Virus record (IMG/VR): IMGVR_UViG_2660238511_000004
Coordinates: 1-18,508 of that record
DNA: 18,508 bases
From: a virus
Taxonomy: Duplodnaviria; Heunggongvirae; Uroviricota; Caudoviricetes
Reading direction: 5' to 3' (one strand)
A program made the translations under genes and the position numbers. Positions 1,726-18,508 of this stretch are shown in pieces (positions within the stretch are counted from its first letter, which is position 1; every line of letters starts with the position of its first letter). The notes under the pieces were generated by a model that saw nothing but the letters and a program-made list of their open reading frames with translations, was not told where the DNA came from and made no database searches.

Positions 1726-1742
1726 TTACCTTCTAATTATGG

Positions 1743-5253: not shown

Positions 5254-5257
5254 ATAC

Positions 5258-5566: not shown

Positions 5567-5577
5567 ATCAATCCCCG

Positions 5578-5778: not shown

Positions 5779-6101
5779 AAATACCCTCTCTCACTTAATC
5801 GCGCCCACGCTTCGTTAAACTCTTCTCTAGTTGCGCCGGATTTTCTTTCTTCGAACATCATGCATTCGCTGATGTCTCCCCATGACTTTGGTCGCTTTTC
5901 AGCGAACAGATCATCCCATTCGAATACCCAGCGGCCTGATTTTCGGTAGTGGTAAATGGTCAGCCATGTTGTGCTGTTCGCTGGATACCCATAGAGAACT
6001 TCGACTTTTTGATCACGGTCTTTATGCTTTTTCAGCAGGATAAAGCCAGCAACCAGCGAAGCTCCGGCAAGAATGATGATTGGAATTTGCCAGTCAGCCA
6101 C
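5775..6101 (-). CDS. Hypothetical membrane-anchored protein (108 aa; one N-terminal TM helix)
   Basis: GTG start preceded by GGGAGAGGGAAG. N-terminal hydrophobic segment IPIIILAGASLVAGFILL followed by KKHKDRD (positive-inside). Directly downstream of the helicase terminator. Confidence 0.5.
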   Translation of the reverse strand: MADWQIPIIILAGASLVAGFILLKKHKDRDQKVEVLYGYPANSTTWLTIYHYRKSGRWVFEWDDLFAEKRPKSWGDISECMMFEERKSGATREEFNEAWARLSERGYL

Positions 6102-6111
6102 ACTTCCCTCT

Positions 6112-6147
6112 CCCCCAAATAAAAAGGCCTGCGATTACCAGCAGGCC
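6112..6147 (-). terminator. Rho-independent terminator downstream of the helicase gene
   Basis: Minus strand: GGCCUGC-(8 nt loop)-GCAGGCC, a perfect 7-bp GC-rich stem, followed by UUUUUAUUUGGGGG. Confidence 0.6.
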
Positions 6148-6176
6148 TGTTATTAGCTCAGTTATGTAGATGGTCA

Positions 6177-7613
6177 TCAGAATCCTCCTTTCTTCTTGGA
6201 CTGCGGTTCCTCGCGTTCACGGCGGCGCATTTCAGCAGACTGTTGGTCTGTGTCATAAATAGCGCCATTTGCCTGAATGCAATACACCGTGCCGGTATTG
6301 CCATGACGATTGAGACGAAGGATTAGTTCGGTTTCACCAGGTGGAACACTGTCATCAAAAGCACCTTCACGATGGATCCCCACCCAATAATCGCAATCCT
6401 GTTCAATCTGCCCTGTATCTCGTGAGTCACTTGGTAATGGGCGTTTATTGGTTCGGCTTTCCAGTGCGCGGTTAAGCTGTGTCAGAAGCACAACAACGCA
6501 ATCAAGCTCTTTGGCAAGGTTCTTCAGTCCTTTGGTGATCATGCCGTAAGCAAGGTCGTTGCGATCGGCCTTCTCAGCGGTCATTAGTGTCAGGTAATCG
6601 ACCAGAATCATGCCAACACATCCTTTTTCTCGCTTGATTCGACGGCTTTCGCTGACGATTTGAGCCAGAGATAATCCCGGCGTGTCGTCGATGTAAAGCA
6701 TGTCGATTTCACTCAAGCGATTAGCTGTTTCGATCGCCCTGTTGAAGTCACCATCGTAATCACCCTGATAGCCGTCATCAGCGTCATTTGTCGCCGGAAG
6801 GTAAAAAATATTCGGGTTAACACCTGACTTCTGTCCTACCAGTTTTTCCAGTATCTGGTCACCGGGCATTTCAAGGCTGAACATCAGAGCGGGCTTTTTC
6901 TCATGCACTGCGCAGTTGATTGCCATCTGGCTGTATAGCGTCGTTTTCCCCATCTTAGGGCGAGCGCCAATGACAAACAGAGAGCCTTTCACCAGACCTT
7001 TCGGTGACAGCATCCTGTCCAGCGATGGGATCCCTGTGCTCATTCCTCGTTGTTCGCCTGACGGGTCAAATCGCTTCTCAAGGTCGCTAACCCAGTCTTC
7101 CATGACCTCACCAAATGAGCGAAGGCCGCGACGCGATCCGGTTTTTGCATGGTCTGTCAGTTGCGTGAAAATCGACTGAATAGCTTCGTACTTCTGTGTT
7201 GCAGTCATTCCGTTGCGGGAATAGAGCAATTCCGTCGCTTCAGTCATGCGGTTGATGGCGTAGCGTTCCATTGCGGTTTCGCGAACCTGCATTGCATAAG
7301 CAACGATGTTTGCTGCGCTTGGCGTGTTCTTTGCGATCTCAGCGATATAAGCAAAACCGCCAACAGACGCCGTTAACGATTTACGCTCCAGTTCATCGAA
7401 AAGCGTCAGGCCATCTACTGGCTTTTGCTCACGGTGCATTCTGGTTATTTCTTCGAAAATGATTTTGTGTGGTCGGCTGTAAAATGAATCAGGCTTCAGC
7501 ATCGCCAGAACTTTCTGGACGCGCTCACTGCTGTCATCATCCAGAAGCAATCCACCAATCACCGCCTGCTCTGCCTCGATGCTATGGGGCGGCGCATAAA
7601 AATTATCGGTCAT
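6177..7613 (-). CDS. Replicative DNA helicase, DnaB family (P22 gene 12-like)
   Basis: DnaB-type N-terminal motif (HSIEAEQAVIGGLLLD), Walker A (GARPKMGKTT) and the overall DnaB architecture. Start set at the ATG with GAGGGTGAA upstream (7613); the track ORF begins 15 nt earlier at GTG. Overlaps the end of the O-like gene. Confidence 0.9.
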   Translation of the reverse strand: MTDNFYAPPHSIEAEQAVIGGLLLDDDSSERVQKVLAMLKPDSFYSRPHKIIFEEITRMHREQKPVDGLTLFDELERKSLTASVGGFAYIAEIAKNTPSAANIVAYAMQVRETAMERYAINRMTEATELLYSRNGMTATQKYEAIQSIFTQLTDHAKTGSRRGLRSFGEVMEDWVSDLEKRFDPSGEQRGMSTGIPSLDRMLSPKGLVKGSLFVIGARPKMGKTTLYSQMAINCAVHEKKPALMFSLEMPGDQILEKLVGQKSGVNPNIFYLPATNDADDGYQGDYDGDFNRAIETANRLSEIDMLYIDDTPGLSLAQIVSESRRIKREKGCVGMILVDYLTLMTAEKADRNDLAYGMITKGLKNLAKELDCVVVLLTQLNRALESRTNKRPLPSDSRDTGQIEQDCDYWVGIHREGAFDDSVPPGETELILRLNRHGNTGTVYCIQANGAIYDTDQQSAEMRRREREEPQSKKKGGF

Positions 7614-8430
7614 CGTGTTCACCCTCACGAACTTTCAGGTAGGTATTATCGTTAAGCAGGAAATCAAATCCCTTTTTGTGCCAGACGGTTCCGCGTTGAT
7701 GGTTTGGGCGCTCTTCGAACATCCATCGGCAATTTTCGCCAACGTAGCTCAAATAATTTCTCCAGTCCTGCATCGTGAACCCATGCCCGTCAAGCTGGCG
7801 GGTTATCACTCCGGCTTTGCGCCAGAACGTTCGGATCTGGTTTTTACGCTTGTCATTCAGTGCGCGGATTCTTGGCGCTTCAGGAAGGATTTCGTGGTAA
7901 GCATCGACAACATCCTGACAGCTAACGGAAGGTTTTTTCTTGTCAGACTTTTTGTCTGCTGTGGCACTCTCTAATACGTCAGTATTAGAGATATTATTTA
8001 TATTATTGTTTATGGACAACCGTTGGACAGCCGTTGGACAATCTCCGCTGAGAGCCGCGCCATTACTGGTGTTTGCGTTGGACAAACGTTGGACAACCGT
8101 TGGACAATTTTTTGCCTGAAAATCGTCATATTTAACGATTGTAAACAGGCTAAATTTCTTCCCCATCGAGCAAATATTAAGCATCCCTTTCGACTCAAAA
8201 GTCCGTAATAAGCTCCGAACTTTGTTGTCGGGGATGAATGTTTCTCTGACCAGAGACGGGCGTCCAGTTATCATCTGACCGCGATCAACAGTTATCGGAC
8301 CGATATCCGTATTGACGACAGTAGATTCGTGATTAGCCTTGAGGATTAAGTGAAGCCAAAGATGTACTGCCTGAGAGTCCTTATAGAGCCTGCTGTCCAT
8401 AAACTGGCGGTGTATAGAGACATACCCCAT
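7603..8430 (-). CDS. Replication initiator protein (lambda O / P22 gp18 analogue) containing the origin
   Basis: Lies between cII and the helicase and contains the iteron array and AT-rich tract in its linker (protein repeats CPTVVQRLSN, CPTAVQRLS, then INNNINNISN). Start set at Met22 (8430), which has AGGAGG 8 nt upstream; the track ORF starts at 8493. Confidence 0.8.
   Translation of the reverse strand: MGYVSIHRQFMDSRLYKDSQAVHLWLHLILKANHESTVVNTDIGPITVDRGQMITGRPSLVRETFIPDNKVRSLLRTFESKGMLNICSMGKKFSLFTIVKYDDFQAKNCPTVVQRLSNANTSNGAALSGDCPTAVQRLSINNNINNISNTDVLESATADKKSDKKKPSVSCQDVVDAYHEILPEAPRIRALNDKRKNQIRTFWRKAGVITRQLDGHGFTMQDWRNYLSYVGENCRWMFEERPNHQRGTVWHKKGFDFLLNDNTYLKVREGEHDDR
7983..8106. repeat. 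Phage replication origin: five direct iterons (GTTGGACA core) plus an adjacent AT-rich tract, inside the O-like gene
   Basis: GTTGGACA at 8022-8029, 8033-8040, 8077-8084, 8088-8095 and 8099-8106, with a partial copy at 8013-8019. AT-rich tract ATTAGAGATATTATTTATATTATTGTTTATGG at about 7985-8016. This is the lambda-like ori layout. Confidence 0.75.
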
Positions 8431-8479
8431 ACTGGATGCCTCCTGATATTGTACAGGGTTATGCCTGTAATCAGCTAAC

Positions 8480-8641
8480 TTAACGACGCCCATGTTTCAC
8501 TCCTGCTTTGGCTAGTCTGTAAACACCAACAAGGCGCTCTGCGAACGCCCTGTTATTTGCTGCGGCTACCACTAATCCCTCAGGTGAATCAGGGTGTCGA
8601 ATCTCTTCTTTTTCCTGGTATTTCTTACGACGTTTTGTCAT
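8480..8641 (-). CDS. Small basic hypothetical ORF (53 aa) between cII and the O-like gene
   Basis: Hand-translated MTKRRKKYQEKEEIRHPDSPEGLVVAAANNRAFAERLVGVYRLAKAGVKHGRR, with GGGAG about 6 nt upstream of the ATG. No recognisable family; could be a leader-region artefact. Confidence 0.25.
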   Translation of the reverse strand: MTKRRKKYQEKEEIRHPDSPEGLVVAAANNRAFAERLVGVYRLAKAGVKHGRR

Positions 8642-8675
8642 AATTACTCCCGTGGATTGATCCAGTCTTTCTACA

Positions 8676-8954
8676 TTAGGCCTCGAAGAATTCGCCGTTC
8701 TTCGGGGCTTTTTCTTTTGTCAGCATTCTGGCTACTTTCTTAGCCAGTTCCGCCAACTCCTCGTCTTCAACACCCCATTCAAGAACAGCCAGAAGCATTC
8801 CCATTTTTGGGATGAAGCTGTCTTTCCATCGCGAAATTTGCGATTCATTAACCCCTAACGCGTCGGCAACCTTTCGCTGACCACGTACAGCAATTCGATT
8901 CAGGATGTTGCTTGTAATTGCATTCGCTTTCTTGCGAGTACTTGTAAGTTGCAT
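8676..8954 (-). CDS. cII: Transcriptional activator cII
   Basis: Internal Met of track ORF 8676..9014 gives 92 aa MQLTSTRKKANAITSNILNRIAVRGQRKVADALGVNESQISRWK...MLLAVLEWGV..., which aligns with recalled lambda cII (SQISRWKRDWIPKFSMLLAVLEWGV). AAGGA lies 11 nt upstream. Position between cro/nutR and O is as expected. Confidence 0.85.
   Translation of the reverse strand: MQLTSTRKKANAITSNILNRIAVRGQRKVADALGVNESQISRWKDSFIPKMGMLLAVLEWGVEDEELAELAKKVARMLTKEKAPKNGEFFEA
8681..8720 (+). terminator. Intrinsic terminator on the strand antisense to the cII 3' end (oop-like antisense RNA terminator)
   Basis: Plus strand: CCUCGAAGAA-(UUCGCCG)-UUCUUCGGGG, a 10-bp stem with one G-U pair, followed by CUUUUUCUUUUGU. 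It lies inside the last cII codons on the opposite strand, the position of the lambda oop terminator, though the sequence differs from lambda oop. Confidence 0.6.
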
Positions 8955-9033
8955 ATGTAAGTATTTCCTTAGATAACAATTGATTGAATGTATGCAAATA
9001 AATGCATACACCATAGGTGTGGTTTAATTTGAT

Positions 9034-9065
9034 GCCCTTTTTCAGGGCTGGGATGTGTAAGAGCG
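9034..9065 (-). promoter_or_regulatory. nutR: nutR (boxA CGCTCTTACACA, boxB GCCCTGAAAAAGGGC)
   Basis: Minus strand between cro and cII reads CGCTCTTACACATCCCAGCCCTGAAAAAGGGCATCAAATTAAACCACACC..., the lambda nutR boxA/boxB, followed by the tR1-like region. Confidence 0.85.
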
Positions 9066-9073
9066 GGAATGTC

Positions 9074-10426
<1,353 letters not shown>

Positions 10427-10475
10427 TCCCCACCTCAATCTCGATAACCAAAAACAAACTATTTTTCATTTAAAA

Positions 10476-10543
10476 ACAATGGAGTTTGTTTTTCACGCCC
10501 CTTTTTACAATATTTCTTGTTTACAACATACAATCTTTCTTGT
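10476..10543. promoter_or_regulatory. 434-type left operator region (three ACAA-N6-TTGT operators) overlapping pL
   Basis: ACAATGGAGTTTGT (10476-10489), ACAATATTTCTTGT (10507-10520), ACAATCTTTCTTGT (10530-10543). Same consensus as the OR sites. Confidence 0.8.
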
Positions 10544-10548
10544 AATTT
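10520..10548 (+). promoter_or_regulatory. Candidate pL promoter (TTTACA -17- TAATTT)
   Basis: -35 TTTACA at 10520-10525, 17-bp spacer, -10 TAATTT at 10543-10548, overlapping the two N-proximal operators and oriented toward nutL and N. Confidence 0.5.
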
Positions 10549-10588
10549 TAAGCCATCAGCAGGACGCACTGACCACCATGAAGGTGAG

Positions 10589-10619
10589 GCTCTTAAAAAT
10601 TAAGCCCTGAAGAAGGGCA
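10589..10619 (+). promoter_or_regulatory. nutL: nutL (boxA GCTCTTAAAAA, boxB GCCCTGAAGAAGGGC)
   Basis: Plus strand reads ...GGTGAGGCTCTTAAAAATTAAGCCCTGAAGAAGGGCAGC..., the lambda nutL boxA/boxB, followed by a lambda-like N leader. Confidence 0.85.
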
Positions 10620-10886
10620 GCATTCAAAGCAGAAGGCTTTGGGGTGTGGTGAAGCCAGCTAGTCACTGGCAAGTGCTTACCTACTGTTGAGCGGTGAAGC
10701 GCTCCCAACGCTAGCAATAGCGTGGACGAGATGGGGAGCCGCGGGCGATAAGGCCGCCATAACGCGCACGTTGTCGCATGGAAAAATCGCTGGGGTGCCG
10801 GTTATACCCCTCCGAATGAGACTCAACAAGCTGGAGCTAGACTACCAGCCACCACACCACCAAAGCTAACTGACAGGAGAATCCAG

Positions 10887-11219
10887 ATGGATGCACAAAC
10901 ACGCCGCCGCGAACGTCGCGCAGAGAAACAGGCTCAATGGAAAGCAGCAAATCCCCTGTTAGTTGGGGTAAGCGCAAAACCAGTTAACCGCCCTATTCTC
11001 TCGCTGAATCGCAAACCGAAATCACGAGTAGAAAGCGCACTGAATCCGATAGACCTTACGGTGCTGGCTGAATACCACGAACAGATTGAAAGCAACCTGC
11101 AGCGTATTGAGCGCAAGAATCAGCGCACATGGTACAGCAAGCCACGCTGTGAAATGGGTGTGACTTGCTCAGGCCGCCAGAAGCAACGCGGAAAATCAAT
11201 TCCAGCTTATTACGATTGA
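10887..11219 (+). CDS. N: Antitermination protein N (lambda type)
   Basis: 110 aa product MDAQTRRRERRAEKQAQWKAANPLLVGVSAKPVNRPILSLNRKPKSRVESALNPIDLTVLAEYH..., near-identical to recalled lambda N including the Arg-rich boxB-binding N-terminus. GGAGAATCCAG precedes the ATG. Confidence 0.95.
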   Translation: MDAQTRRRERRAEKQAQWKAANPLLVGVSAKPVNRPILSLNRKPKSRVESALNPIDLTVLAEYHEQIESNLQRIERKNQRTWYSKPRCEMGVTCSGRQKQRGKSIPAYYD

Positions 11220-11227
11220 GGTGAGCC

Positions 11228-11365
11228 ATGCTCAAGAAAGTCAAACGCCGACTTTACAAAGAAGGTAGATATTCATGCCAGTTGCCAAAATGCGACACAA
11301 CAAAATGGAGTGTCGATGATTGGTGTAACTGGATAGATAGATACGGAACTTGGTGGGATAAATAA
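11228..11365 (+). CDS. Possible small Cys-rich ORF (45 aa) downstream of N
   Basis: Hand-translated MLKKVKRRLYKEGRYSCQLPKCDTTKWSVDDWCNWIDRYGTWWDK. Weak RBS; occupies the region where lambda has tL1 and sieB. Speculative. Confidence 0.2.
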   Translation: MLKKVKRRLYKEGRYSCQLPKCDTTKWSVDDWCNWIDRYGTWWDK

Positions 11366-11419
11366 CAGGTAACTTAAGCGTATTTACTTTCGCAGCAAAC
11401 CACTTATTTGAGGTGAGAT

Positions 11420-11506
11420 ATGGAAGAAGAATTTGAAGAGTTCGAAGAGCATCCTCAGGATGTGATGGAACAATACCAGGACTACCCTTATGACTACGAC
11501 TATTGA
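11420..11506 (+). CDS. orf28-like small acidic ORF (28 aa)
   Basis: Hand-translated MEEEFEEFEEHPQDVMEQYQDYPYDYDY with GAGGTGAGAT upstream. It is 87 nt long and overlaps ral by 17 bp, which is the geometry recalled for lambda orf28/ral. Confidence 0.55.
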   Translation: MEEEFEEFEEHPQDVMEQYQDYPYDYDY

Positions 11507-11690
11507 TAAAAATCAATGGTGTGGACAATTCAAGCGATGCAATGGATGCAAGCTGCAATCGGAATGCATGGTTAAGCCTGAAGAAATGTTTCCTGTAATG
11601 GAAGATGGGAAATGTGTCGATAAATGGGCAATACGAACGACGGCAATGATTGCCAGAGAACTTGGTAAACAGAATAACAAGGCTGCCTGA
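11490..11690 (+). CDS. ral: Restriction alleviation protein Ral
   Basis: 66 aa product MTTTIDKNQWCGQFKRCNGCKLQSECMVKPEEMFPVMEDGKCVDKWAIRTTAMIARELGKQNNKAA, matching recalled lambda Ral. Confidence 0.9.
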   Translation: MTTTIDKNQWCGQFKRCNGCKLQSECMVKPEEMFPVMEDGKCVDKWAIRTTAMIARELGKQNNKAA

Positions 11691-11748
11691 TGGTGGCCTT
11701 TATTTTTGTCCGTAAATAATTTCATGCTTATTACAATCAAGGTGATAT

Positions 11749-12171
11749 ATGGAAGAACAAGCAAACAAGATTCTCGTAGAACTACTGCAAAAAGCCAGTA
11801 ATGGAATAGACGCGGCTGTTTCATTCAGCCAGGCACAGATTCCTGATGTTGTTCATCAGTTGCTAATATGGAGTTTTGTCCATAGCGCACTTTTCCAAGT
11901 GGCTGGATTGTTGCTTTTAATTGCAGCAATTAAACTTCCTAGTTTTGCAAGAACGGCAAGAAATAATGGCGAGAGATGGACGTCTTTCGATGGACGTCCA
12001 AATGATGGACATTTTATATCTTCGGTTTATTACGATATATGCACTGTATTTGTTCCTATATTTGGCTCAATTATGGGTGTTTTAATTATTGCCTTCAATT
12101 TCGAATGGTTGAAGATTTGGATTGCGCCTAAGTTATTCCTAATTGAATATGCGGCATCATTGGTTAAGTAA
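11749..12171 (+). CDS. Hypothetical integral membrane protein (140 aa, 2-3 predicted TM helices) in the pL operon
   Basis: AAGGTGA lies 5 nt upstream of the ATG. Hydrophobic segments LLIWSFVHSALFQVAGLLLLIAAI and VFVPIFGSIMGVLIIAFNF. Followed by a terminator. No recognisable family. Confidence 0.55.
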   Translation: MEEQANKILVELLQKASNGIDAAVSFSQAQIPDVVHQLLIWSFVHSALFQVAGLLLLIAAIKLPSFARTARNNGERWTSFDGRPNDGHFISSVYYDICTVFVPIFGSIMGVLIIAFNFEWLKIWIAPKLFLIEYAASLVK

Positions 12172-12320
12172 TTTCAGGCCGCATAGTCTGCCTTTATTTT
12201 TAGCATAAACAAGAGAATAAACACTGCACTGTGTATTCATTCCAACGAGTGAATACACGGAGCAATGTCGCTCGTAACTAAACAGGAGCCGACTTGTTCT
12301 GATTATTGGAAATCTTCTTT

Positions 12321-12347
12321 GCCCTCCAGTGTGAGGGCAATTTTTTT
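12321..12347 (+). terminator. Rho-independent terminator (tL2-like) ahead of the recombination module
   Basis: GCCCUC-(CAGUGU)-GAGGGC, a perfect 6-bp stem, followed by AAUUUUUUU. The next gene's RBS GGAGG and ATG follow immediately at 12360. Confidence 0.65.
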
Positions 12348-12359
12348 GACGGAGGATAT

Positions 12360-13328
12360 ATGAGTGAAGTAACAGATTTAGTTGTTATTGAAAAAGCAAA
12401 TGCAATGACTGTATTTCAGTCTGCCGACCAGATTGAAGAAATTCTCCAAAAGGTTGAACGTGAAGTTATGTCCTTTGTGCCTGATATCACAACGGCAAAG
12501 GGCAGAAAGGAGATCGCTTCTCTGGCGTATAAAGTTGCGCAGACGAAAACATATCTCGATGGTCTTGGCAAAGACCTTGTTGCTGAACTGAAGGAAATTC
12601 CAAAGCTAATTGATGCCAACCGCAAGACGGTGCGCGATCGCCTTGATGAACTGAAAGCCAAGGCGCGCCAGCCTCTTACTGATTATGAGGAGGAACAGGC
12701 ACGGATTAAAGCCGAAGAAGAAGCTAAGGCAGCAGCTGAAGCTCTCGCAAAGCAAATTGAGTCTGACCATGAAATAGCGATTTTGATGGATCGCGAGTTT
12801 GACCGCCAAAGAGAAGAGGCAAGACTCAAAGCGGAGCAGGAAAAGCGAGAGCATGAAGAACGCTTAAAAAGAGAAGCTGAAGAGAAAGCCAGAGCAGAAG
12901 CCGAAGCAAAGGCAAAAGCCGAAATTGAAGCAGCAGCAAGACGAGAAGCAGAGGCTAAGGCCGCAGCGGAACGTGCAGAGCGTGAACGCATTGAAGCCGA
13001 GCAACGAGCACAGCGCGAAGCAAAAGAGGCAGCAGAACGAGCTGAAAGAGAAAAGCAAGCGGCAATTGAAGCAGAACGCCGAAAAGCACAGGAGGAGGCT
13101 GAACGAATCCGGCGCGAGGCTGAAGCAAAAGAGCAAGCCAGAATAGCAGAAGAAAAAAGAATCAAGGACGAAGAAGAGCGCAGAGCAAAGGATAAAGCTC
13201 ACCGGAAAGAAGTAAATAACAAAATACTTGCTGACCTTATCAAGGTTGGCGCATCAGAAGATGTTGCTAAAAATATCATAACAGCCATCGTAAAAGGCGA
13301 AGTATTCGCAACAAAAATAACCTACTAA
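12360..13328 (+). CDS. Coiled-coil phage protein (322 aa) with a long Glu/Ala/Lys/Arg-rich central helix; possibly Gp157/DUF1351-like and recombination-associated
   Basis: Start set at the ATG with GGAGG upstream; the track's earlier start (12306) would put the terminator hairpin inside the ORF. The central 160 aa or so are degenerate EAKA/ERAE heptad-like repeats. Family assignment is from memory only. Confidence 0.65.
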   Translation: MSEVTDLVVIEKANAMTVFQSADQIEEILQKVEREVMSFVPDITTAKGRKEIASLAYKVAQTKTYLDGLGKDLVAELKEIPKLIDANRKTVRDRLDELKAKARQPLTDYEEEQARIKAEEEAKAAAEALAKQIESDHEIAILMDREFDRQREEARLKAEQEKREHEERLKREAEEKARAEAEAKAKAEIEAAARREAEAKAAAERAERERIEAEQRAQREAKEAAERAEREKQAAIEAERRKAQEEAERIRREAEAKEQARIAEEKRIKDEEERRAKDKAHRKEVNNKILADLIKVGASEDVAKNIITAIVKGEVFATKITY

Positions 13329-13352
13329 TAAAACCAACATAAGGAACCACCC

Positions 13353-13484
13353 ATGATTTACGCAATCGCGGGAGGCGCTCGCATGGGTGCCTTCCAACTA
13401 AATGAATCTTTACTTGAACGAATCACCCGTAAATTACGTGACGGATGGAAAAGAGTTGAGGTCTTATTATGCGCAATGAAATAG
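13353..13484 (+). CDS. cIII: cIII-like protease inhibitor (43 aa)
   Basis: Hand-translated MIYAIAGGARMGAFQLNESLLERITRKLRDGWKRVEVLLCAMK. The core ESLLERITRKLRDGWKR matches recalled lambda cIII. AAGGAA lies 6 nt upstream. Confidence 0.75.
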   Translation: MIYAIAGGARMGAFQLNESLLERITRKLRDGWKRVEVLLCAMK

Positions 13485-13621
13485 CCATCAATCACCAGAT
13501 GCTTCGTGCTGCACAGAACAAAGCAGTAATAGCCCGATTTATTGGTGATTCCAAAATGTGGCTTGAAGCAAATAAAGCGATGAAATCAGCTATCAACCTT
13601 CCGTGGTATCGCAGGAAATGA
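13469..13621 (+). CDS. Kil-like small protein (50 aa), tentative
   Basis: Hand-translated MRNEIAINHQMLRAAQNKAVIARFIGDSKMWLEANKAMKSAINLPWYRRK. Overlaps the cIII 3' end as kil does in lambda; the IARFIGDSKM segment recalls lambda Kil. Low certainty. Confidence 0.4.
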   Translation: MRNEIAINHQMLRAAQNKAVIARFIGDSKMWLEANKAMKSAINLPWYRRK

Positions 13622-13776
13622 GTTTTACAGATAACTGGTCAGACGAAGAATTCATTCGTCAGATGAAAGAATTAATCGGTAACGAAGGAGATATTCATGT
13701 CACTTGCAACCACAGTGAAGGAGAGCAAGTTACAGAGACGCATGTACACGCAGAAAGCTCTCTGGTATCGCCATAA
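13618..13776 (+). CDS. Small hypothetical ORF (52 aa), alternative 1 of two overlapping candidates
   Basis: ATGA overlap with the preceding ORF stop, with AGGA upstream. Product MSFTDNWSDEEFIRQMKELIGNEGDIHVTCNHSEGEQVTETHVHAESSLVSP. Overlaps the 13697..13867 candidate in another frame, so at most one is likely real. Confidence 0.25.
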   Translation: MSFTDNWSDEEFIRQMKELIGNEGDIHVTCNHSEGEQVTETHVHAESSLVSP

Positions 13777-13867
13777 TGGCGACCGCGAAGGAATGCGGGT
13801 ATGCCTTAATTTGTCTCGAGTCGAAGTATTAAATCAGCGTTATTTCCTTGGGCCGTGTCCATTCTGA
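13697..13867 (+). CDS. Small hypothetical ORF (56 aa), alternative 2 of two overlapping candidates
   Basis: GGAG 8 nt upstream. Product MSLATTVKESKLQRRMYTQKALWYRHNGDREGMRVCLNLSRVEVLNQRYFLGPCPF. Ends 8 nt before the Rad52-like gene. Confidence 0.25.
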   Translation: MSLATTVKESKLQRRMYTQKALWYRHNGDREGMRVCLNLSRVEVLNQRYFLGPCPF

Positions 13868-13875
13868 GGTGAATT

Positions 13876-14583
13876 ATGGATTTGAATAAATTCGATGAGC
13901 CATTCAGCCCTGAAGATATCGAATGGCGAATACAGCAAAGCGGTAAAACACGCGATGGCAAAGTGTGGGCTATGGTGCTGGCTTATGTCACGAACCGGGC
14001 AATCATGAAACGCCTGGACGATGTTTGCGGCAAAGCAGGATGGCGCAATGAATACCGCGATATTCCCAACAACGGAGGCGTTGAATGCGGCATATCAATC
14101 AGGATTGATTCCGAATGGGTAACCAAATGGGATGCTGCTGAAAACACGCAGGTAGAAGCCGTAAAAGGTGGTCGTTCCGGTGCAATGAAGCGCGCTGCCG
14201 TTCAGTGGGGAATCGGTCGGTATCTGTATAACCTTGAGGAAGGTTTCGCACAAACATCTCTCGATAAAAAGCAGGGATGGCACAGGGCAAAACTCAAGGA
14301 TGGAACAGGATTTTACTGGCTCCCTCCATCGCTGCCGGGATGGGCAATCCCAGCATCAGATAACAAACCATCACCAGAAAATACCAACCAGAAATCTCCA
14401 TCGGTTGACTGCGAGCAAATCCTGAAAGACTTCAGCGATTATGCGTCAACAGAAACTGACAAGAAAAAACTCATCGAGCGTTATCAGCGTGACTGGCAAT
14501 TAATGGCTGGCAACGAGGAGGCGCAGGCTAAATGCGTTCAGGTAATGAACATCAGAGTTAACGAGCTAAAACAGGCGGCATAA
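13876..14583 (+). CDS. Rad52/Sak-family single-strand annealing protein
   Basis: 235 aa product whose N-terminal 150 aa fit the recalled Rad52/Rad22 fold signature (…GGVECGISIR…WVTKWDAAENTQVEAVKGGRSGAMKRAAVQWGIGRYLYNL…). GAGGTG RBS. Sits immediately upstream of ssb, the typical SSAP-SSB pairing. Confidence 0.75.
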   Translation: MDLNKFDEPFSPEDIEWRIQQSGKTRDGKVWAMVLAYVTNRAIMKRLDDVCGKAGWRNEYRDIPNNGGVECGISIRIDSEWVTKWDAAENTQVEAVKGGRSGAMKRAAVQWGIGRYLYNLEEGFAQTSLDKKQGWHRAKLKDGTGFYWLPPSLPGWAIPASDNKPSPENTNQKSPSVDCEQILKDFSDYASTETDKKKLIERYQRDWQLMAGNEEAQAKCVQVMNIRVNELKQAA

Positions 14584-15057
14584 ATGGCAAGCAGAGGCGT
14601 AAATAAGGTGATCATTATTGGTCGCCTTGGGCATGATCCAGAAATCAGATATTCACCATCAGGAACGGCATTTGCAAACCTTACAGTTGCTACGTCAGAA
14701 CAATGGCGTGATAAGCAAACTGGAGAGCAAAAGGAGCAGACGGAGTGGCACCGCGTGGTAATGAGCGGGAAACTGGCAGAAATTGCCAGCGAATATCTGC
14801 GAAAAGGCTCTGAGGTTTATCTTGAAGGCAAATTGCGGACAAGAAAATGGCAGGATCAAAGCGGACAGGATAGGTTCACTACCGAAGTTATCGTAGGCGT
14901 TGGTGGAACCATGCAAATGCTTGGTGGCAAGCAAGGAGGCAATGAACAGTCTTCACCTCAGCGAAATAACGGCCAGCAACAAAGACAGCAATCTCAGCAG
15001 CATGGGAATCACAGCGAACCACCTATGAACTTCGACGATTCGGATATTCCGTTCTAG
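14584..15057 (+). CDS. ssb: Single-stranded DNA-binding protein (SSB)
   Basis: 157 aa product with an OB-fold N-terminus ([48 protein letters not shown]…), a Gly/Gln-rich linker and the acidic C-terminal tail DDSDIPF. Confidence 0.9.
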
Positions 15058-15066
15058 GAGCTGAAT

Positions 15067-15546
15067 ATGAAAATCTGCTCAAGATGCCATCAACAGAAGG
15101 AAGAAAGGGACTTTCAAATCAGAAGAGCATCCAGAGATGGATTAACTGCCGCTTGCCGGGCTTGCCTGGCTGAATACGACAAAGAACGCGCTGGATTGCC
15201 ACATCGAGTATCAGCAAGGAGAGAATATCAATCATCGGAACGCGGAAGAGAACGGTGTAACGCAGCCAAAAAGCGGTTCATTCAGAGCAACCCATGGAAA
15301 AGAAAAGCCCACATCATTGTGGGTAATTTTTTGCGCGACGGTAAGCTAATCCGACCACCACAATGTGAGTGCTGCGGATCAGAATGTAAACCACAGGCGC
15401 ACCACTGCGACTACAGCAAACCAACCGATGTGATGTGGCTCTGCAAGTCATGTCATGTCGAGTGGCACAAACATAACAAACCTATCTACCCAGACGAGGA
15501 ACCAGTAACTCTCCCCTTCCCTCGTCACGCTATTCACGCAATTTAA
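15067..15546 (+). CDS. HNH-like zinc-binding nuclease-family protein (159 aa)
   Basis: AGGAG 7 nt upstream. N-terminal CxxC...CxxC pair (CSRCH, CRAC) and a C-terminal HNH-like segment CECCGSE…AHHCDYSKP…WLCKSCHVEWH. Confidence 0.55.
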   Translation: MKICSRCHQQKEERDFQIRRASRDGLTAACRACLAEYDKERAGLPHRVSARREYQSSERGRERCNAAKKRFIQSNPWKRKAHIIVGNFLRDGKLIRPPQCECCGSECKPQAHHCDYSKPTDVMWLCKSCHVEWHKHNKPIYPDEEPVTLPFPRHAIHAI

Positions 15547-15559
15547 TCAGGAGAAAATC

Positions 15560-15856
15560 ATGCCAGCGCCTCAGTATGGTGCGGATGACCCGCGCCGCTG
15601 TTCCGGCAATTCCGTATCGGAGGTGCTGGATAAATTCAGAAAAAACTACGATCGAATAATGTCTCTACAACAGGAAACGAAAGAGGAAAAGGAATTTCGC
15701 CACTGTATATGGCTTGCAGAGAAAGAAGAACGAGAGCGAATTTACCAGACATCAATCCGACCATTCCGCAAAGCCACATATACCCACTTCCCTGAATATA
15801 TCGACCCGCGCCTGCGTAATTACCGCTCACGCTATGGCGCTATCAGTAATGACTGA
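15560..15856 (+). CDS. Hypothetical protein (98 aa)
   Basis: AGGAG 7 nt upstream of the ATG; tightly packed in the operon. No recognisable family. Confidence 0.5.
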   Translation: MPAPQYGADDPRRCSGNSVSEVLDKFRKNYDRIMSLQQETKEEKEFRHCIWLAEKEERERIYQTSIRPFRKATYTHFPEYIDPRLRNYRSRYGAISND

Positions 15857-15866
15857 GGAATTAACA

Positions 15867-16157
15867 ATGAAAACAATGAAGCTAAACATCGACCTCGGAA
15901 AATACGTTATTACCGGAACCAAACACGATCTGATTCTTAGCGAAAGAGGAATTATCAAAGAAGGCGAGAATGCAGGGAAAGAAACACTAAGCCGTATCGG
16001 TTATTACAGCAAGTTTGAGCATCTGGTTAAAGAGTTATGCAACCGTGAAATTCTGTTATCTCAGGCACGGACGCTACAGGATATTCAGCAGCATATCGAA
16101 GCTTTAGGTATGTCACTTAGCATGGCTATTGACCAGTTCGTGGAGAGTAAATCATGA
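15867..16157 (+). CDS. Hypothetical protein (96 aa)
   Basis: Start set at the internal ATG ([17 protein letters not shown]…) with GAGGAA upstream, which avoids overlapping the previous gene; the track ORF starts earlier at TTG (15714). Confidence 0.5.
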
Positions 16158-16321
16158 GAGGACTTGCATACAATCCCGGCATTCTTCCGGCAGAAATGAT
16201 TATTCGCCAACGCGTAAAGCCAATGCCATCGAGAGAGGAATTGCTTAAGAGAAATTCTTTTCCATCAGTAAATCAAAACAAATATCTGAATGCGATGTGG
16301 CGCAAAGGAGGCAAGCAGTGA
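16154..16321 (+). CDS. Small hypothetical ORF (55 aa)
   Basis: ATGA overlap with the upstream stop and GTGA overlap with the downstream start. Product [55 protein letters not shown]. Coordinates are track-anchored because of a one-base reading ambiguity here. Confidence 0.3.
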
Positions 16322-16617
16322 GTGTATATCTCATTGATAAACGTCGACGTGGGCAACAAATACCACCTGTAGGAATTCCGAATCACACATGGTTTTGCGT
16401 ACTTGATATCGATGGTATGGATGCGTTGGTTGACACTCGTCATTACTGCGATACCGCAACAGCTACTCCGGCGAAAGCAAAGAAAATGGCTGCTCTGATA
16501 GAAAACTGGACTCCACCTGATGGTTGGTGCAATGGGAATGATCGAGATTGGCATGAAAAAATGAAGGGCTATATCTGCGATTTCTTGCGTAAATGCAACG
16601 GATTCAGGGTGATGTGA
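16318..16617 (+). CDS. Hypothetical protein (about 99 aa)
   Basis: Start set at the GTG preceded by AAAGGAGG with a 6-nt spacer (the track starts at an upstream GTG, 16297). Product …[63 protein letters not shown]…. Confidence 0.45.
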
Positions 16618-16618
16618 C

Positions 16619-17299
16619 ATGAGCAAGATTGACTATCAGGCACTGCGTGAAGCGGCAGAGAAAGCAACGTGTGGTGTGTGGTCGCTCGAATATGGAGAGG
16701 GCCGATTTGATGGTGATGATGCACTAATTCATCGCGAGGCTGCTGGATATATTCCCATTTGCAGAATTGAAGGAGCGCATCCTGAAAGCGGTTTCGATGA
16801 AGATTTCCAAATGGAACAGCAGGCCAATGCTGAATTCATCGCCGCAGCCAATCCGGCTACCGTCTTGGCGCTGCTTGATGAACTGGAAGCCGCAGAGAAG
16901 CGTATCGCTGAATTGGAGTCACTGACTGTACCACAGTTACCGCAGCAAGCGGTGCCGGATGAAATGCCGGAGCCAGATACCGCGAGAATGTTCTTTACCG
17001 ATGCAGTTGTGGCAATAGCTAAGGTTCAAGGCTGGAACGCCTGCCGCGCTGCCATGCTTCATAGTGCCGAACCTGTAAGCCAGGCTTACAAGTTGAACGC
17101 GCTGGATGGCAACTCTCCGGTAACTCCGGATGGTTGGGTTATGGTGCCGAAGGAGTTAACGCCGGAAATGATGAGAGCCGTTCAGATTAGAAGTGAGCTT
17201 GGAGGGTATGCCACTTCCAATCTATCTGGTGCATACAATATGTTTTCTGAGTTCTGGAATGTTGCTGTCTCAGCTGCGCCTAAGGTGGATGATTTATGA
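16619..17299 (+). CDS. Ead/Ea22-like protein
   Basis: 226 aa product with the segment EFIAAANPATVLALLDELEAAEKRIAELE, recalled as characteristic of Ea22-like proteins of lambdoid prophages. Position in the distal pL operon is consistent. Confidence 0.55.
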   Translation: MSKIDYQALREAAEKATCGVWSLEYGEGRFDGDDALIHREAAGYIPICRIEGAHPESGFDEDFQMEQQANAEFIAAANPATVLALLDELEAAEKRIAELESLTVPQLPQQAVPDEMPEPDTARMFFTDAVVAIAKVQGWNACRAAMLHSAEPVSQAYKLNALDGNSPVTPDGWVMVPKELTPEMMRAVQIRSELGGYATSNLSGAYNMFSEFWNVAVSAAPKVDDL

Positions 17300-17598
17300 A
17301 TCTCTATCGCTGCCCATTCTGTGGTTCCACTGTGCTTAACATCGGATACTCATTCAGTATCAGAGGGAAAATGCGCTATGTGTCATGCAAATGTGGTGCC
17401 CAAGGACCAGAAAAACGAACTAGATCTGAAGCGATTTCTTCATGGAATAGTCGAATGAAAGTATGGGTTTATGATCCAGAAACCATATTAAACGCTGAAG
17501 AGCGCAGGAGAACGGAAGTCTATATTCATAACCTTAATGAAGATGGATTTACACCAGTGCTTGTAAAGGCTACTCCGCAGGAGGTTAACCATGGCTAA
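17296..17598 (+). CDS. Lar-family restriction alleviation protein (N-terminal zinc ribbon)
   Basis: ATGA overlap with the upstream gene. N-terminus MNLYRCPFCGSTVLNIGYSFSIRGKMRYVSCKCGAQGPE has the CPFCG…C-x-C pattern of the Lar family. Confidence 0.6.
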   Translation: MNLYRCPFCGSTVLNIGYSFSIRGKMRYVSCKCGAQGPEKRTRSEAISSWNSRMKVWVYDPETILNAEERRRTEVYIHNLNEDGFTPVLVKATPQEVNHG

Positions 17599-17630
17599 CC
17601 TGCAACTTGACGTCAAAGGTGAATAACAAT

Positions 17631-17686
17631 CCTCGCATTCGCGGGGATTTCTTTTATCTGAACTCGCTACGGCGAGTTTTATTTTA
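17631..17686 (+). terminator. Tandem intrinsic terminator-like hairpins downstream of the Lar-like gene
   Basis: First hairpin CCUCGC-(AUUC)-GCGGGG followed by AUUUCUUUUAUC (17631-17658). Second hairpin CUCGC-(UACG)-GCGAG followed by UUUUAUUUUA (17663-17686). Confidence 0.5.
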
Positions 17687-17997
17687 TGGAGATGATTATG
17701 ACCTGTTCAACATTCAACCCTCTAACGTTACAGAAATACCAGCCAGACCCTGAAGATTTATGCTCACTGTGTGGCGGAAATCATGGTAAAGCCGCCATGA
17801 TCGAATGTAAGGACAAAATCCACATTTGCCTTAATTGCGTTGATGTCCTCGTTGATATCAAAAATGAGAGAGAAGATAAAAAGCGTAGCGAGGCTGTTAG
17901 CGCCTTAGATTCATGGATGCGAGATGGGTATAGTGCCGCGCAAATTTATGACTTAGCAATATCAAAAGGCGAAATACCAGGAGTGCGCATCGAATAA
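17686..17997 (+). CDS. Hypothetical Cys-rich protein (zinc-ribbon-like), 103 aa
   Basis: Two CxxC pairs (CSLCGG and CLNC). The more likely start is the ATG at 17698, which has GGAG 7 nt upstream. Flanked by terminator hairpins on both sides. Confidence 0.5.
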   Translation: MEMIMTCSTFNPLTLQKYQPDPEDLCSLCGGNHGKAAMIECKDKIHICLNCVDVLVDIKNEREDKKRSEAVSALDSWMRDGYSAAQIYDLAISKGEIPGVRIE

Positions 17998-18039
17998 GAC
18001 GTAACCAATATTCGAATTGAAGAACTGAAAGAACACCAA

Positions 18040-18061
18040 GCCGCCTGATGGCGGTTTTTTA
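18040..18061 (+). terminator. Rho-independent terminator
   Basis: GCCGCC-(UGAU)-GGCGGU followed by UUUUUUAUU. Confidence 0.65.
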
Positions 18062-18105
18062 TTGCCTGATTTGCAGGTTCGATTCCCTATTCGGAGATAG
18101 CACTC

Positions 18106-18306
18106 ATGCAACACGAACTACAGCCTGATTCACTGGTTGATTTGAAATTCATCATGGCCGATACTGGCTTCGGTAAAACCTTCATTTATGACCGGATTAA
18201 GTCCGGCGACCTGCCTAAAGCCAAAGTTATCCACGGGCGAGCAAGATGGTTATATCGTGACCATTGTGAATTCAAAAATAAGCTCTTAAGCCGCGCCAAT
18301 GGGTAA
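18106..18306 (+). CDS. AlpA-family DNA-binding protein, probable excisionase
   Basis: 66 aa product with the AlpA/phage-regulator HTH signature (…DTGFGKTFIYDRIKSGDLPKAKVIHGRARWL…). GGAGA RBS. Sits at the distal end of the pL operon, where an int gene would follow beyond the window. Confidence 0.65.
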   Translation: MQHELQPDSLVDLKFIMADTGFGKTFIYDRIKSGDLPKAKVIHGRARWLYRDHCEFKNKLLSRANG

Positions 18307-18508
18307 AATAGCGGGTAAAATATTTCTCACATCTAAAAAACACCATTCCAATCAATCCCCTGCTGCTTCAAGTAGATGTCTGCAGGGAACTGGTTATTCT
18401 CATTTTTTATTTGTGACATTGTGGTTGTTGTGCGACAGACATTGCTATTTGAACCGCCCCGGGTTTCCTGGAGAGTGTTTTATCTGTGAACTCAGGCTGC
18501 CAGATCAT

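What the first reader, a model, noticed from the sequence alone, without database searches (positions are those of the whole stretch)
11749..12171. Unknown integral membrane protein following ral in the pL operon
A 140 aa protein with 2-3 predicted TM helices and a strong RBS sits after ral and is followed by a terminator. Lambda carries soluble early-left functions in this area, and the lambda sieB region between N and ral appears to be absent here (only about 200 bp separate N and orf28). A small membrane protein in the early-left operon could be a superinfection-exclusion, Abi, or host-cell-targeting factor.
Basis: inference. Interest (0 to 1): 0.5.

Follow-up and report, generated by a model that had tools for sequence, protein, structure and literature searches.

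The report
Uncharacterised periplasm-facing early phage membrane protein
The ORF is real: it is gene 34 of Shigella phage Sf6, an early inner-membrane protein from a very large phage family with no known function, whose conserved parts are predicted to face the periplasm.

Summary
The window is phage Sf6, integrated or IS-flanked and without IS911. ORF 11749-12171 is Sf6 gene 34 (140 aa), annotated "gene 34 protein" with no function since deposition.

The ORF follows ral in the N/pL operon, has an SD, and has two clear TM helices plus a hydrophobic Trp/Tyr/Lys-rich C-terminal segment. The hairpin directly after it is weak; the real terminator (tL2A) lies 150 bp downstream.

New here:
- **Family.** At least 4,665 clusters (50% identity), with no Pfam, NCBIfam or PADLOC model (PHROG 3054, unknown). 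It occurs in lambdoid prophages and in virulent N4-like, phi92-like, Vibrio and Pseudomonas phages, always among early or DNA-metabolism genes.
- **Selection.** Residues 1-42 and 118-140 are under strong purifying selection (pN/pS 0.05-0.10). The TM hairpin and loop are relaxed (0.37-0.53) and vary in length.
- **Topology.** 49 homologue clusters carry a canonical Sec signal peptide before the conserved N-domain, and charge bias agrees. This predicts N-out/C-out with a cytoplasmic loop.
- **Origin.** Relative to lambda, the gene is a 494-bp cassette bounded by a 12-nt direct repeat.

It is not related to SieA, SieB, Imm or holins. Function remains untested. An envelope-directed lytic-cycle role, such as superinfection exclusion or host takeover, is the best guess.

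The parts
10887..11219 (+). N antiterminator (Sf6 gene 37). It is the first gene of the pL operon and supplies the antitermination needed to read through to gene 34.
   Evidence: Pfam N36 E=1.6e-26; Sf6 annotation. In lambdoid prophages an N homologue lies 1-3 genes upstream of the family member in nearly all loci.
11490..11690 (+). ral (restriction alleviation), the gene immediately upstream.
   Evidence: Pfam Ral E=3.8e-47; PHROG 1055.
11679..11707 (+). Terminator-like hairpin with a T-tract at the 3' end of ral. It contains copy 1 of the 12-nt direct repeat GCCTTTATTTTT (11696-11707).
   Evidence: 9-bp stem, -13.3 kcal/mol, z=-2.4. The same hairpin follows ral in lambda. Repeat D2.
11708..12201 (+). 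The 494-bp gene-34 cassette. This segment is present in Sf6 but absent from lambda between the ral hairpin and the conserved ral-ea10 intergenic block. It ends with copy 2 of the direct repeat.
   Evidence: Alignment to lambda; perfect 12-nt direct repeat with spacing 494.
11739..11745 (+). Shine-Dalgarno-like AAGGTGA.
   Evidence: Read directly from the sequence.
11749..12171 (+). Gene 34 CDS (140 aa plus stop).
   Evidence: PHROG 3054, full length, E=1.8e-52.
11749..11859 (+). aa 1-37: conserved acidic N-terminal helical domain, predicted periplasmic. The invariant I31-P32-x-V34 lies here; the motif continues as L38...W41 at the start of TM1.
   Evidence: Conservation. Family net charge -3.9. 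Signal peptide directly in front of this domain in 49 homologue clusters. pN/pS 0.05-0.10.
11860..11931 (+). aa 38-61: TM1. Only its N-terminal, outer-leaflet end is conserved (L38, W41, N/S/Q stripe).
   Evidence: KD 1.8-2.2; alignments.
11932..12033 (+). aa 62-95: variable loop, predicted cytoplasmic. K/R residues cluster right after TM1. The Sf6 allele carries the ancient motif GERWT...ISSVYYD.
   Evidence: Charge statistics. Motif shared with distant members, including an Ignavibacteria-MAG locus. Contains a 10-nt tandem repeat.
12034..12102 (+). aa 96-118: TM2.
   Evidence: KD 1.9-2.5.
12103..12168 (+). aa 119-140: the most conserved segment (E/D-W-L-K-I-W-x-A-P-K-x-Y-L-I-E-Y-A-A-x-L-x-K). 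It is predicted to be a periplasmic-face interfacial or re-entrant helix pair.
   Evidence: Invariant L121, A126, P127, K128, L131, E133. AF2 helices 119-125 and 127-139. <H> 0.38 and low hydrophobic moment. pN/pS 0.06-0.10.
12175..12201 (+). Weak 5-bp hairpin with a T-tract after gene 34, a degenerate copy of the ral 3' hairpin. It contains direct-repeat copy 2 (12190-12201).
   Evidence: -6.8 kcal/mol, z=-0.8.
12221..12268 (+). Inverted repeat (22-nt arms, 14-bp perfect core) in the conserved 'bsq4' boundary block shared with lambda.
   Evidence: -24.9 kcal/mol, z=-6.9. I1. Nearly identical to lambda. bsq4 annotation.
12319..12347 (+). tL2A-type intrinsic terminator, the first convincing terminator downstream of gene 34.
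   Evidence: 8-bp GC-rich stem plus T7, -18.2 kcal/mol, z=-2.6. Sf6 annotation 'tL2A'. Conserved in lambda.

Best explanation
SHOWN. Gene 34 is a genuine, selectively maintained accessory gene of the N-dependent early-left (pL) operon. Relative to lambda it is a 494-bp cassette between ral and the conserved tL2 block. It belongs to a very large phage-specific family, found in temperate and virulent phages of diderm bacteria, that always sits among early or DNA-metabolism genes.

WELL SUPPORTED INFERENCE. The protein is a helical-hairpin inner-membrane protein with N-out/C-out topology. The acidic N-terminal helical domain, the outer-leaflet ends of both TM helices and the invariant C-terminal W/Y/K-rich segment form one conserved module on the periplasmic face of the inner membrane. 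The cytoplasmic half of the hairpin and the loop act mainly as a loosely constrained anchor.

INFERRED MECHANISM (weakest step). The protein is made early in lytic growth. Its periplasmic module binds a conserved envelope component of the host, or self-assembles at the outer leaflet, and changes the periplasmic face of the inner membrane. The most likely outcome is that the infected cell is closed to secondary DNA entry or envelope attack, that is, superinfection exclusion or envelope protection during lytic growth, functionally like T4 Imm/Sp. A prophage-expressed Abi toxin is less likely.
For: Identity and reality; purifying selection.

Early, N-dependent position: N and ral lie upstream on the same strand, a terminator-like hairpin sits between ral and gene 34, and no promoter was detected. 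In 95 prophage or phage loci the gene lies 1-3 genes after N.

Cassette nature.

Family size and lack of annotation: 4,665 clusters at E<=1e-3 and 2,122 at E<=1e-10, all stand-alone proteins of 115-185 aa. No Pfam, NCBIfam or PADLOC model; PHROG 3054 'unknown'. All source names are 'hypothetical' or 'phage transmembrane protein'.

Presence in virulent phages and early-region context. Phage-database hits come only from phages of Gram-negative hosts.

Topology: 49 of 92 Bjorn-like homologue clusters have an n-h-c signal peptide with an AxA site directly before the conserved N-domain. Across 151 diverse members the N-tail has net charge -3.9 with no K/R near TM1, while the loop is +1.8 with K/R clustered right after TM1.

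Functional module at the termini: invariant IPxV..L..W and L....APK..L.E motifs across Entero-, Vibrio-, Pseudomonas- and Rheinheimera-phage members. pN/pS is 0.05-0.10 at the termini against 0.37-0.53 in the centre.

No conserved partner gene, and allele type is not linked to neighbours. This fits a host or self target rather than a phage-encoded partner.
Against: No experiment exists and there is no homologue of known function, so the exclusion/protection role is an analogy only.

The periplasmic module is conserved across phages with completely different DNA-delivery machines (podo-, myo- and siphoviruses). That argues against a phage-specific injection block of the SieA type and fits a host-takeover target equally well.

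Topology is predicted, not measured. The signal-peptide evidence comes from a Pseudomonas-phage-like subfamily about 30% identical to gp34. The C-terminal segment could be a marginal third TM, which would put the C-terminus in the cytoplasm.

The promoter scan is insensitive: it also missed the annotated pL. Expression from the prophage therefore cannot be excluded.

The AF2 model has only moderate confidence (pLDDT 78.6), and fold searches return only generic helical hairpins.
Confidence: 0.33

Rival explanations
1. Host-takeover or anti-defence factor. The periplasm-facing module binds and inactivates, or activates, a conserved host inner-membrane or periplasmic protein. Candidates include an envelope-stress sensor, a divisome or elongasome component, a protease complex, or a membrane-embedded defence sensor or effector. 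The benefit goes to the phage's own lytic cycle, not to excluding other phages.
For: The topology and conservation evidence is the same as for the best explanation. The module is conserved across unrelated phage morphotypes and host genera, which suits a conserved host target. The pL region between N and cIII is a known hotspot for counter-defence genes such as ral and P22 gene 17. Precedent for early phage membrane peptides binding the TM/periplasmic part of a host sensor: YIP-YfiN in PB1-like phages (PMC8085984).
Against: No candidate target was identified. There is no similarity to any described anti-defence protein. No match in PADLOC, though that library holds defence rather than anti-defence proteins. 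Nothing computed here separates this explanation from the best one.
Confidence: 0.3
2. Lysis-timing or membrane-integrity factor. It would be an early-made antiholin-like or membrane-stabilising protein that prevents premature holin triggering or seals the membrane after genome entry.
For: It is a small inner-membrane helical hairpin made early. T4 RI (established knowledge) is an early periplasm-facing antiholin. The family is restricted to phages of diderm hosts.
Against: It is never located in a lysis cassette. In Sf6 the holin, endolysin and Rz genes lie about 10.5 kb away on the other strand (window 65-1282). There is no Pfam or PHROG holin/antiholin match. Holins of the carrier phages are unrelated to each other, whereas the periplasmic module is near-invariant. 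Allele type is not linked to neighbouring genes.
Confidence: 0.1
3. Prophage-expressed abortive-infection or exclusion toxin, a functional analogue of SieB or RexB occupying the 'sieB slot' of the pL region.
For: The position between N and cIII is where lambda and P22 carry sieB. It is a small membrane protein. The promoter scan is too insensitive to exclude a promoter.
Against: There is no sequence or profile similarity to lambda SieB, P22 SieB or SieA (hhalign probability 0.15-0.23%) and no PADLOC hit. sieB is transcribed antisense to pL from its own promoter, whereas gene 34 is co-oriented behind a terminator-like hairpin. The family is a stable component of strictly virulent phage genera, where a lysogen-protecting Abi makes little sense.
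Confidence: 0.07
4. Cytoplasm-facing membrane anchor (N-in/C-in) that tethers replication or recombination proteins to the membrane or sequesters a cytoplasmic host factor.
For: Neighbouring genes in several phages are an exonuclease, an annealase, an ATPase, Erf and SSB.
Against: The signal peptide in front of the N-domain in 49 homologue clusters contradicts a cytoplasmic location. So does the positive-inside charge pattern. No partner gene is conserved.
Confidence: 0.05

Closest known systems
Phage P22 SieA (superinfection exclusion, inner membrane)
   Same: Both are small (about 160 aa against 140 aa) phage-encoded integral inner-membrane proteins of P22-like phages without a signal peptide. 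SieA blocks DNA injection at the inner membrane and periplasm (PMC10883804). That is the kind of activity proposed here.
   Different: No sequence or profile similarity (hhalign probability 0.15%). SieA has three predicted TM helices, lies next to the ejection-protein genes in the late region, and has its own promoter for expression in the lysogen. It acts only on P22-like phages through gp16/gp20. Gene 34 is a two-TM hairpin in the pL operon, and its family extends to unrelated virulent phages.
Phage T4 Imm and Sp (early superinfection immunity and spackle)
   Same: From established knowledge, these are small envelope proteins made early in a lytic infection that protect the already infected cell from secondary DNA injection and from lysis from without. 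Their genes are embedded among early DNA-metabolism genes, as this family is in virulent phages.
   Different: No Pfam match to Imm_superinfect or any other family. Imm/Sp are confined to T4-like phages, whereas this family spans many phage types. Function here is untested.
Lambda/P22 SieB (PF14163)
   Same: Membrane protein encoded between N and cIII of lambdoid phages, so it occupies the same genomic slot.
   Different: No homology. sieB is on the opposite strand with its own promoter and is expressed in lysogens. SieB has a large cytoplasmic C-terminal domain and acts as an Abi factor (established knowledge).
YIP peptides of PB1-like Pseudomonas phages (bind the diguanylate cyclase YfiN)
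   Same: Early-region phage ORFan membrane peptides that act by binding the TM/periplasmic portion of a host inner-membrane sensor (PMC8085984). This is the precedent for the host-takeover rival.
   Different: YIPs are 3.6-kDa single-helix peptides restricted to Pbunavirus. They are unrelated in sequence and architecture.
PHROG 3054 (and the older POG0622/VOG0622 labels seen in annotations)
   Same: gp34 matches PHROG 3054 over its full length (E=1.8e-52). The Vibrio and phi92-like homologues carry POG/VOG0622 tags.
   Different: These are clusters with no functional annotation. The topology, selection pattern and breadth described here are not part of those entries.

Membership tests
PHROG 3054 (unknown function) | Full-length match to the family HMM | tested here: met
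   E=1.8e-52, residues 1-140 against profile 1-137/137.
SieB (PF14163) | Sequence or profile similarity to SieB | tested here: not met
   No Pfam hit at E<=1. hhalign against lambda SieB gives probability 0.23% and against P22 SieB 0.19%.
SieB (PF14163) | Transcribed antisense to pL from its own promoter and expressed in the lysogen | tested here: not met
   P22 and lambda sieB lie on the strand opposite to N and ral, and P22 has an annotated sieB promoter. Gene 34 is co-oriented with N and ral. No promoter was detected, but the scan is insensitive.
SieA (P22-type) | Sequence or profile similarity; three-TM architecture | tested here: not met
   hhalign probability 0.15%. gp34 has two clear TM helices, against three predicted for SieA.
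SieA (P22-type) | Blocks DNA injection by P22-like phages when expressed alone | not testable with these tools
   Needs plating and DNA-entry assays.
T4 Imm (PF14373) | Match to the Pfam model | tested here: not met
   The only Pfam hit at E<=1 is DUF1031, at E=0.061 and below cut-off.
Holin / antiholin | Located in the lysis cassette next to endolysin and spanin genes | tested here: not met
   Sf6 lysis genes are at window 65-1282 on the minus strand. Family members in 95 loci sit after N, not in lysis cassettes.
Holin / antiholin | Match to a holin Pfam or PHROG family | tested here: not met
Known anti-phage defence proteins (PADLOC-DB) | Match to any defence-system HMM | tested here: not met
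   0 families at E<=1.
Moron (autonomous inserted transcription unit) | Discrete insertion between genes that are adjacent in related phages | tested here: met
   A 494-bp segment absent from lambda and bounded by the 12-nt direct repeat GCCTTTATTTTT.
Moron (autonomous inserted transcription unit) | Own promoter allowing expression from the repressed prophage | tested here: inconclusive
   No sigma-70-like site upstream on the plus strand, and the 58-bp spacer is filled by a hairpin and the SD. However, the same scan fails to find the annotated pL.
Moron (autonomous inserted transcription unit) | Own efficient terminator | tested here: not met
   Only a 5-bp hairpin, -6.8 kcal/mol, z=-0.8.

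The most novel reading that the evidence does not exclude
Gene 34 may represent a pan-phage family of early proteins: at least 4,600 sequence clusters, no Pfam entry, and members ranging from lambdoid prophages to N4-like, phi92-like, marine Vibrio and Pseudomonas phages. In this reading the near-invariant periplasm-facing module targets one universally conserved component at the outer face of the inner membrane of diderm bacteria. That would be a previously unrecognised, broadly shared step of envelope takeover or exclusion in phage infection, mechanistically unrelated to Imm, SieA, SieB or Rex.
Probability: 0.3. Interest if true: 0.65.

Novelty: new member of a known kind. Interest (0 to 1): 0.42.

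Why it matters
Small early membrane proteins are among the least understood phage genes. The few that are characterised (Imm, Sp, SieA, YIP) each revealed a distinct way of manipulating the cell envelope.

This family is unusually broad. It is found in 181 records of a 50,697-record phage collection, in at least 266 of 5,426 complete E. coli genomes, and in more than 4,600 clusters in metagenomic protein space. Yet it has no domain entry and no published function.

The analysis turns 'hypothetical protein' into a sharply testable object. It gives a predicted N-out/C-out hairpin, a defined periplasmic functional module with named invariant residues (IPxV..L..W and APK..L.E), and a dispensable-looking anchor. 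Homologues exist in tractable phages (Sf6, CUS-3, HK633, BASEL Bas60).

If its target is a conserved envelope component, it could explain a general step of infection. It could also provide a new tool or antibacterial target site.

Tried and rejected
- **Homology to characterised families.** Pfam, NCBIfam, PADLOC and PHROGs gave nothing beyond PHROG 3054 'unknown' and a sub-threshold DUF1031 hit.
- **Solved structures.** A profile search of PDB sequences gave one chance hit at E=9.2.
- **Direct tests against exclusion proteins.** hhalign against lambda SieB, P22 SieB and P22 SieA found no relation.
- **Conserved partner gene.** Neighbours were clustered in 33 and then 95 loci. Only N and cI recur, and allele type is not linked to the downstream gene.
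- **Diversifying selection in the variable centre.** pN/pS of 0.37-0.53 indicates relaxed constraint, not overall positive selection.
- **Termini conserved only by recent recombination or a DNA element.** Rejected: synonymous sites are near saturation while amino acids are conserved. Recent intragenic recombination does occur among E. coli alleles.
- **RNA element in the region.** Only a sub-threshold STnc230 match (E=0.4).
- **Literature.** Seven searches (Sf6 gene 34/gp34, accession numbers, PHROG id, early-left operon, superinfection exclusion and similar) and six papers were consulted. None mentions a function.
- **Context look-ups.** Two encoding-contig look-ups landed on contigs too short to be informative.

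Full report
**What the window is.** The 18.5-kb window is the reverse complement of Shigella phage Sf6 (NC_005344/AF547987) at 100% identity over positions 1-18390. There are two differences. IS911, which interrupts ninG in the reference, is absent, so ninG is intact at 3104-3715. The last 118 nt lie beyond the attP core and match a multicopy, IS-like sequence present in most E. coli genomes. The target ORF, 11749-12171 on the plus strand, is Sf6 gene 34 (NP_958210). It is annotated only as 'gene 34 protein'.

**Checking the observation.** The ORF encodes 140 aa. It is preceded by AAGGTGA three bases before the ATG. Upstream on the same strand lie N (Pfam N36, E=1.6e-26), gene 36 (DUF5484), a 28-aa orf28 homologue and ral (Pfam Ral, E=3.8e-47).

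- Hydropathy gives two clear TM helices, at aa ~38-61 and ~96-118. The hydrophobic C-terminal segment (119-140) is rich in Trp, Tyr and Lys. It stays below TM threshold and carries invariant charged residues.
- The hairpin immediately after the stop codon is weak: 5 bp, -6.8 kcal/mol, z = -0.8.
- The first convincing terminator is tL2A at 12319-12347. It follows a strong inverted repeat at 12221-12268.
- ral is itself followed by a better hairpin with a T-tract at 11679-11707.

**Origin of the gene.** Aligning the region after gene 34 with lambda is informative. In lambda the ral 3' hairpin ('...GGCCTTTATTTTT') runs straight into a ~150-bp block that contains the inverted repeat and tL2A. That block is ~97% identical in Sf6. 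In Sf6 a 494-bp segment carrying gene 34 is interposed, and it ends with a second perfect copy of GCCTTTATTTTT. Gene 34 is therefore a discrete mosaic cassette. It resembles a moron in being an insertion. It lacks a detectable promoter, but the scan is insensitive and also missed the annotated pL. It has only a degenerate 3' hairpin.

**The family.** No Pfam, NCBIfam or PADLOC model matches; PHROG 3054 ('unknown function') matches over the full length.

- A profile search of 1.84 billion representative proteins finds 4,665 clusters at E<=1e-3 and 2,122 at E<=1e-10. The 150 best listed are all stand-alone proteins of 115-185 aa aligned end to end.
- All source names are 'hypothetical', 'phage transmembrane protein' or 'Gene 34 protein'.
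- In the annotated phage collection, 181 records carry a homologue. All infect Gram-negative hosts.
- Temperate carriers include lambdoid and P22-like phages (CUS-3, HK633, SPN9CC and others).
- Strictly virulent carriers include N4-like Ithacavirus, phi92-like Justusliebigvirus (including BASEL Bas60), 47-60-kb Vibrio phages, Pseudomonas phages Bjorn and Lyrsu01, and Rheinheimera phages.
- In every phage inspected, the gene lies in the early or DNA-metabolism region. In FSL SP-058 it lies downstream of the RNA-polymerase genes and before the dUTPase gene. In muut it precedes an ATPase and an endonuclease. In the Vibrio phages it precedes an exonuclease and a gp2.5-like annealase.
- In 95 lambdoid loci it sits one to three genes after N. 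No other neighbour is conserved, and allele type is not linked to the downstream gene.
- Species-representative genomes add Burkholderiales, Thalassotalea and a few MAGs of other diderm phyla.
- The conserved 5' end is detectable by blastn in 266 of 5,426 complete E. coli genomes.

**A striking conservation pattern.** Residues 1-42 and 118-140 are nearly invariant among enterobacterial homologues. They retain invariant positions (I31, P32, V34, L38, W41; L121, A126, P127, K128, L131, E133) even in Vibrio-, Pseudomonas- and Rheinheimera-phage members at 27-41% identity. The region from mid-TM1 through the loop to TM2 varies in sequence and length, giving alleles of 120-161 aa.

This is protein-level selection, not merely recombination. 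Between alleles the termini keep ~86% amino-acid identity while third-codon positions are only ~52-57% identical, falling as low as 32%. Within three allele classes, pN/pS is 0.05-0.10 in the termini and 0.37-0.53 in the centre. The centre is therefore relaxed rather than positively selected overall.

Among E. coli alleles the 5' 123 nt are 90-96% identical although the centres cannot be aligned. This shows recent intragenic recombination near codon 42. The Sf6 allele belongs to a long-loop class with the motif G-E/K-x-W-T...[I/L/V]-[T/S]-S-x-x-Y-D. The same motif recurs in very distant members, so that loop form is old.

**Topology.** Two independent lines agree.

1. Charge bias was measured over 151 diverse representatives. 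The N-tail averages 2.1 K/R and 5.9 D/E (net -3.9), with no basic residue near TM1. The loop averages 5.2 K/R (net +1.8), clustered immediately after TM1. By the positive-inside rule this predicts N-out with a cytoplasmic loop.
2. The Pseudomonas phage Bjorn homologue starts at an ATG with a good SD. It carries an extra N-terminal n-h-c segment ending in ASA|AD. A search with it found 92 clusters. Of these, 49 have a 27-58-residue extension with basic n-region, strongly hydrophobic core and an AxA site (AQA|AE, ASA|AE, ASA|AD and similar) directly before the conserved N-domain.

A Sec signal peptide in front of the domain places that domain in the periplasm. With two TM helices, the invariant C-terminal segment is then also on the periplasmic side. 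It probably lies in or re-enters the outer leaflet, because it is hydrophobic, rich in Trp, Tyr and Lys, and contains invariant K128 and E133, which argue against a normal third TM. A marginal third TM cannot be excluded.

The functional part of the protein is therefore a periplasm-facing module. The cytoplasmic half of the hairpin behaves as an anchor.

**What it is not.**

- hhalign against lambda SieB, P22 SieB and P22 SieA gives probabilities of 0.15-0.23%.
- sieB is antisense to pL with its own promoter, and sieA sits beside the ejection genes with its own promoter.
- There are no holin, Imm or Rex matches, and the gene is never in a lysis cassette.
- Literature searches found no statement about the gene. 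The Sf6 experimental-evolution deletions lie in the nin region, not here.

**Most likely mechanism.** The gene, the family, the cassette structure, the selection pattern and the early-region context are shown. The periplasmic orientation of the conserved module is a well-supported inference. The protein's action is inferred.

The module is near-invariant across phages with unrelated virions and across host genera, and no partner gene co-varies with it. The target is therefore most likely a conserved host envelope component, or the protein itself as an oligomer at the outer leaflet.

The gene is early, N-dependent and retained in virulent phages, so the role is in lytic growth. My best single guess (about one third) is exclusion or protection of the already infected cell. 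This would work like T4 Imm/Sp, and more loosely like P22 SieA, which blocks injection at the inner membrane (PMC10883804).

An almost equally likely rival (about 0.3) is host takeover or anti-defence through binding a host inner-membrane or periplasmic protein. The YIP-YfiN interaction is a precedent (PMC8085984). Lysis timing (~0.1), a SieB/Rex-like prophage Abi (~0.07) and a cytoplasm-facing replication anchor (~0.05) are disfavoured by location, orientation, distribution and topology respectively.

**Verdict.** The gene is a long-annotated hypothetical ORF, not a new discovery. It has no known relative of defined function. It belongs to an unexpectedly large family with no Pfam model. It now has a concrete, testable structural model. 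Interest is moderate (0.42). It would rise if the conserved periplasmic module proves to hit a universal envelope target.

Noticed in passing
window ~3620 (inside ORF 3104-3715, minus strand): The window is Sf6 without the IS911 copy that interrupts ninG in the reference genome (record 32876-34124), so ninG is intact here. This is either the pre-insertion state or a precise loss.
   Followed up: partly
window 18391-18508: Identity to Sf6 stops at the attP core (record 18099-18114). The last 118 nt match a multicopy sequence found in 4,677 of 5,426 E. coli genomes, at up to 50 places per genome and also on plasmids. This looks like the end of an insertion sequence abutting the attachment site, so the source is probably an integrated or IS-flanked Sf6-like element.
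   Followed up: partly
window 12190-12350: This ~150-bp non-coding block is ~97% identical to the lambda ral-ea10 intergenic region. It contains a 22-nt-arm inverted repeat (12221-12268; -24.9 kcal/mol, z=-6.9, no T-tract) followed by tL2A. Its first 40-55 nt occur in more than 1,300 complete E. coli genomes. It may be an RNA processing or stability element or a recombination 'boundary sequence' (bsq4).
   Followed up: partly
window 9950-10426 (+), Sf6 gene 38: An ORF between the cI-type repressor and OL/pL, the position of rexAB in lambda. The longer reading frame has a signal-peptide-like stretch ([20 protein letters not shown]). PHROG 2651, unknown function. It is a better candidate than gene 34 for a prophage-expressed envelope or exclusion function.
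   Followed up: no
window 11975-11998: A perfect 10-nt repeat GATGGACGTC occurs twice, 14 nt apart, inside the loop-coding part of gene 34 (codons for ...RWTSFDGRP...). It is a possible slippage or indel hotspot in the length-variable loop.
   Followed up: no
window 12360-13328 (+), Sf6 gene 33: The downstream 322-aa protein is labelled 'cell envelope biogenesis protein TolA' by PGAP in E. coli prophages. It scores only 9 bits against the TolA model (cut-off 59). The label looks like an artefact of its long Glu/Ala/Lys-rich helical region. It matches PHROGs 1376, 21365 and 17211, all of unknown function.
   Followed up: partly
window 10476-10545: The consensus promoter scan found no plus-strand promoter anywhere in 10400-13500, not even the annotated pL among the 434-type operators. 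Negative promoter calls in this window therefore carry little weight.
   Followed up: yes
L008 (phage HK633) 2191-2866: In HK633 the gene-34 homologue (121-aa allele, tblastn 2501-2863) is not annotated as one gene. It is covered by two other annotated ORFs (HK633_045 and HK633_044), which is probably a mis-annotation in that record.
   Followed up: no
window 11668-11748 (minus strand): A weak sub-threshold Rfam match to the enterobacterial sRNA STnc230 (27 bits against a gathering score of 50, E=0.4). It lies antisense to the ral 3' end and the spacer, and is most likely chance.
   Followed up: no
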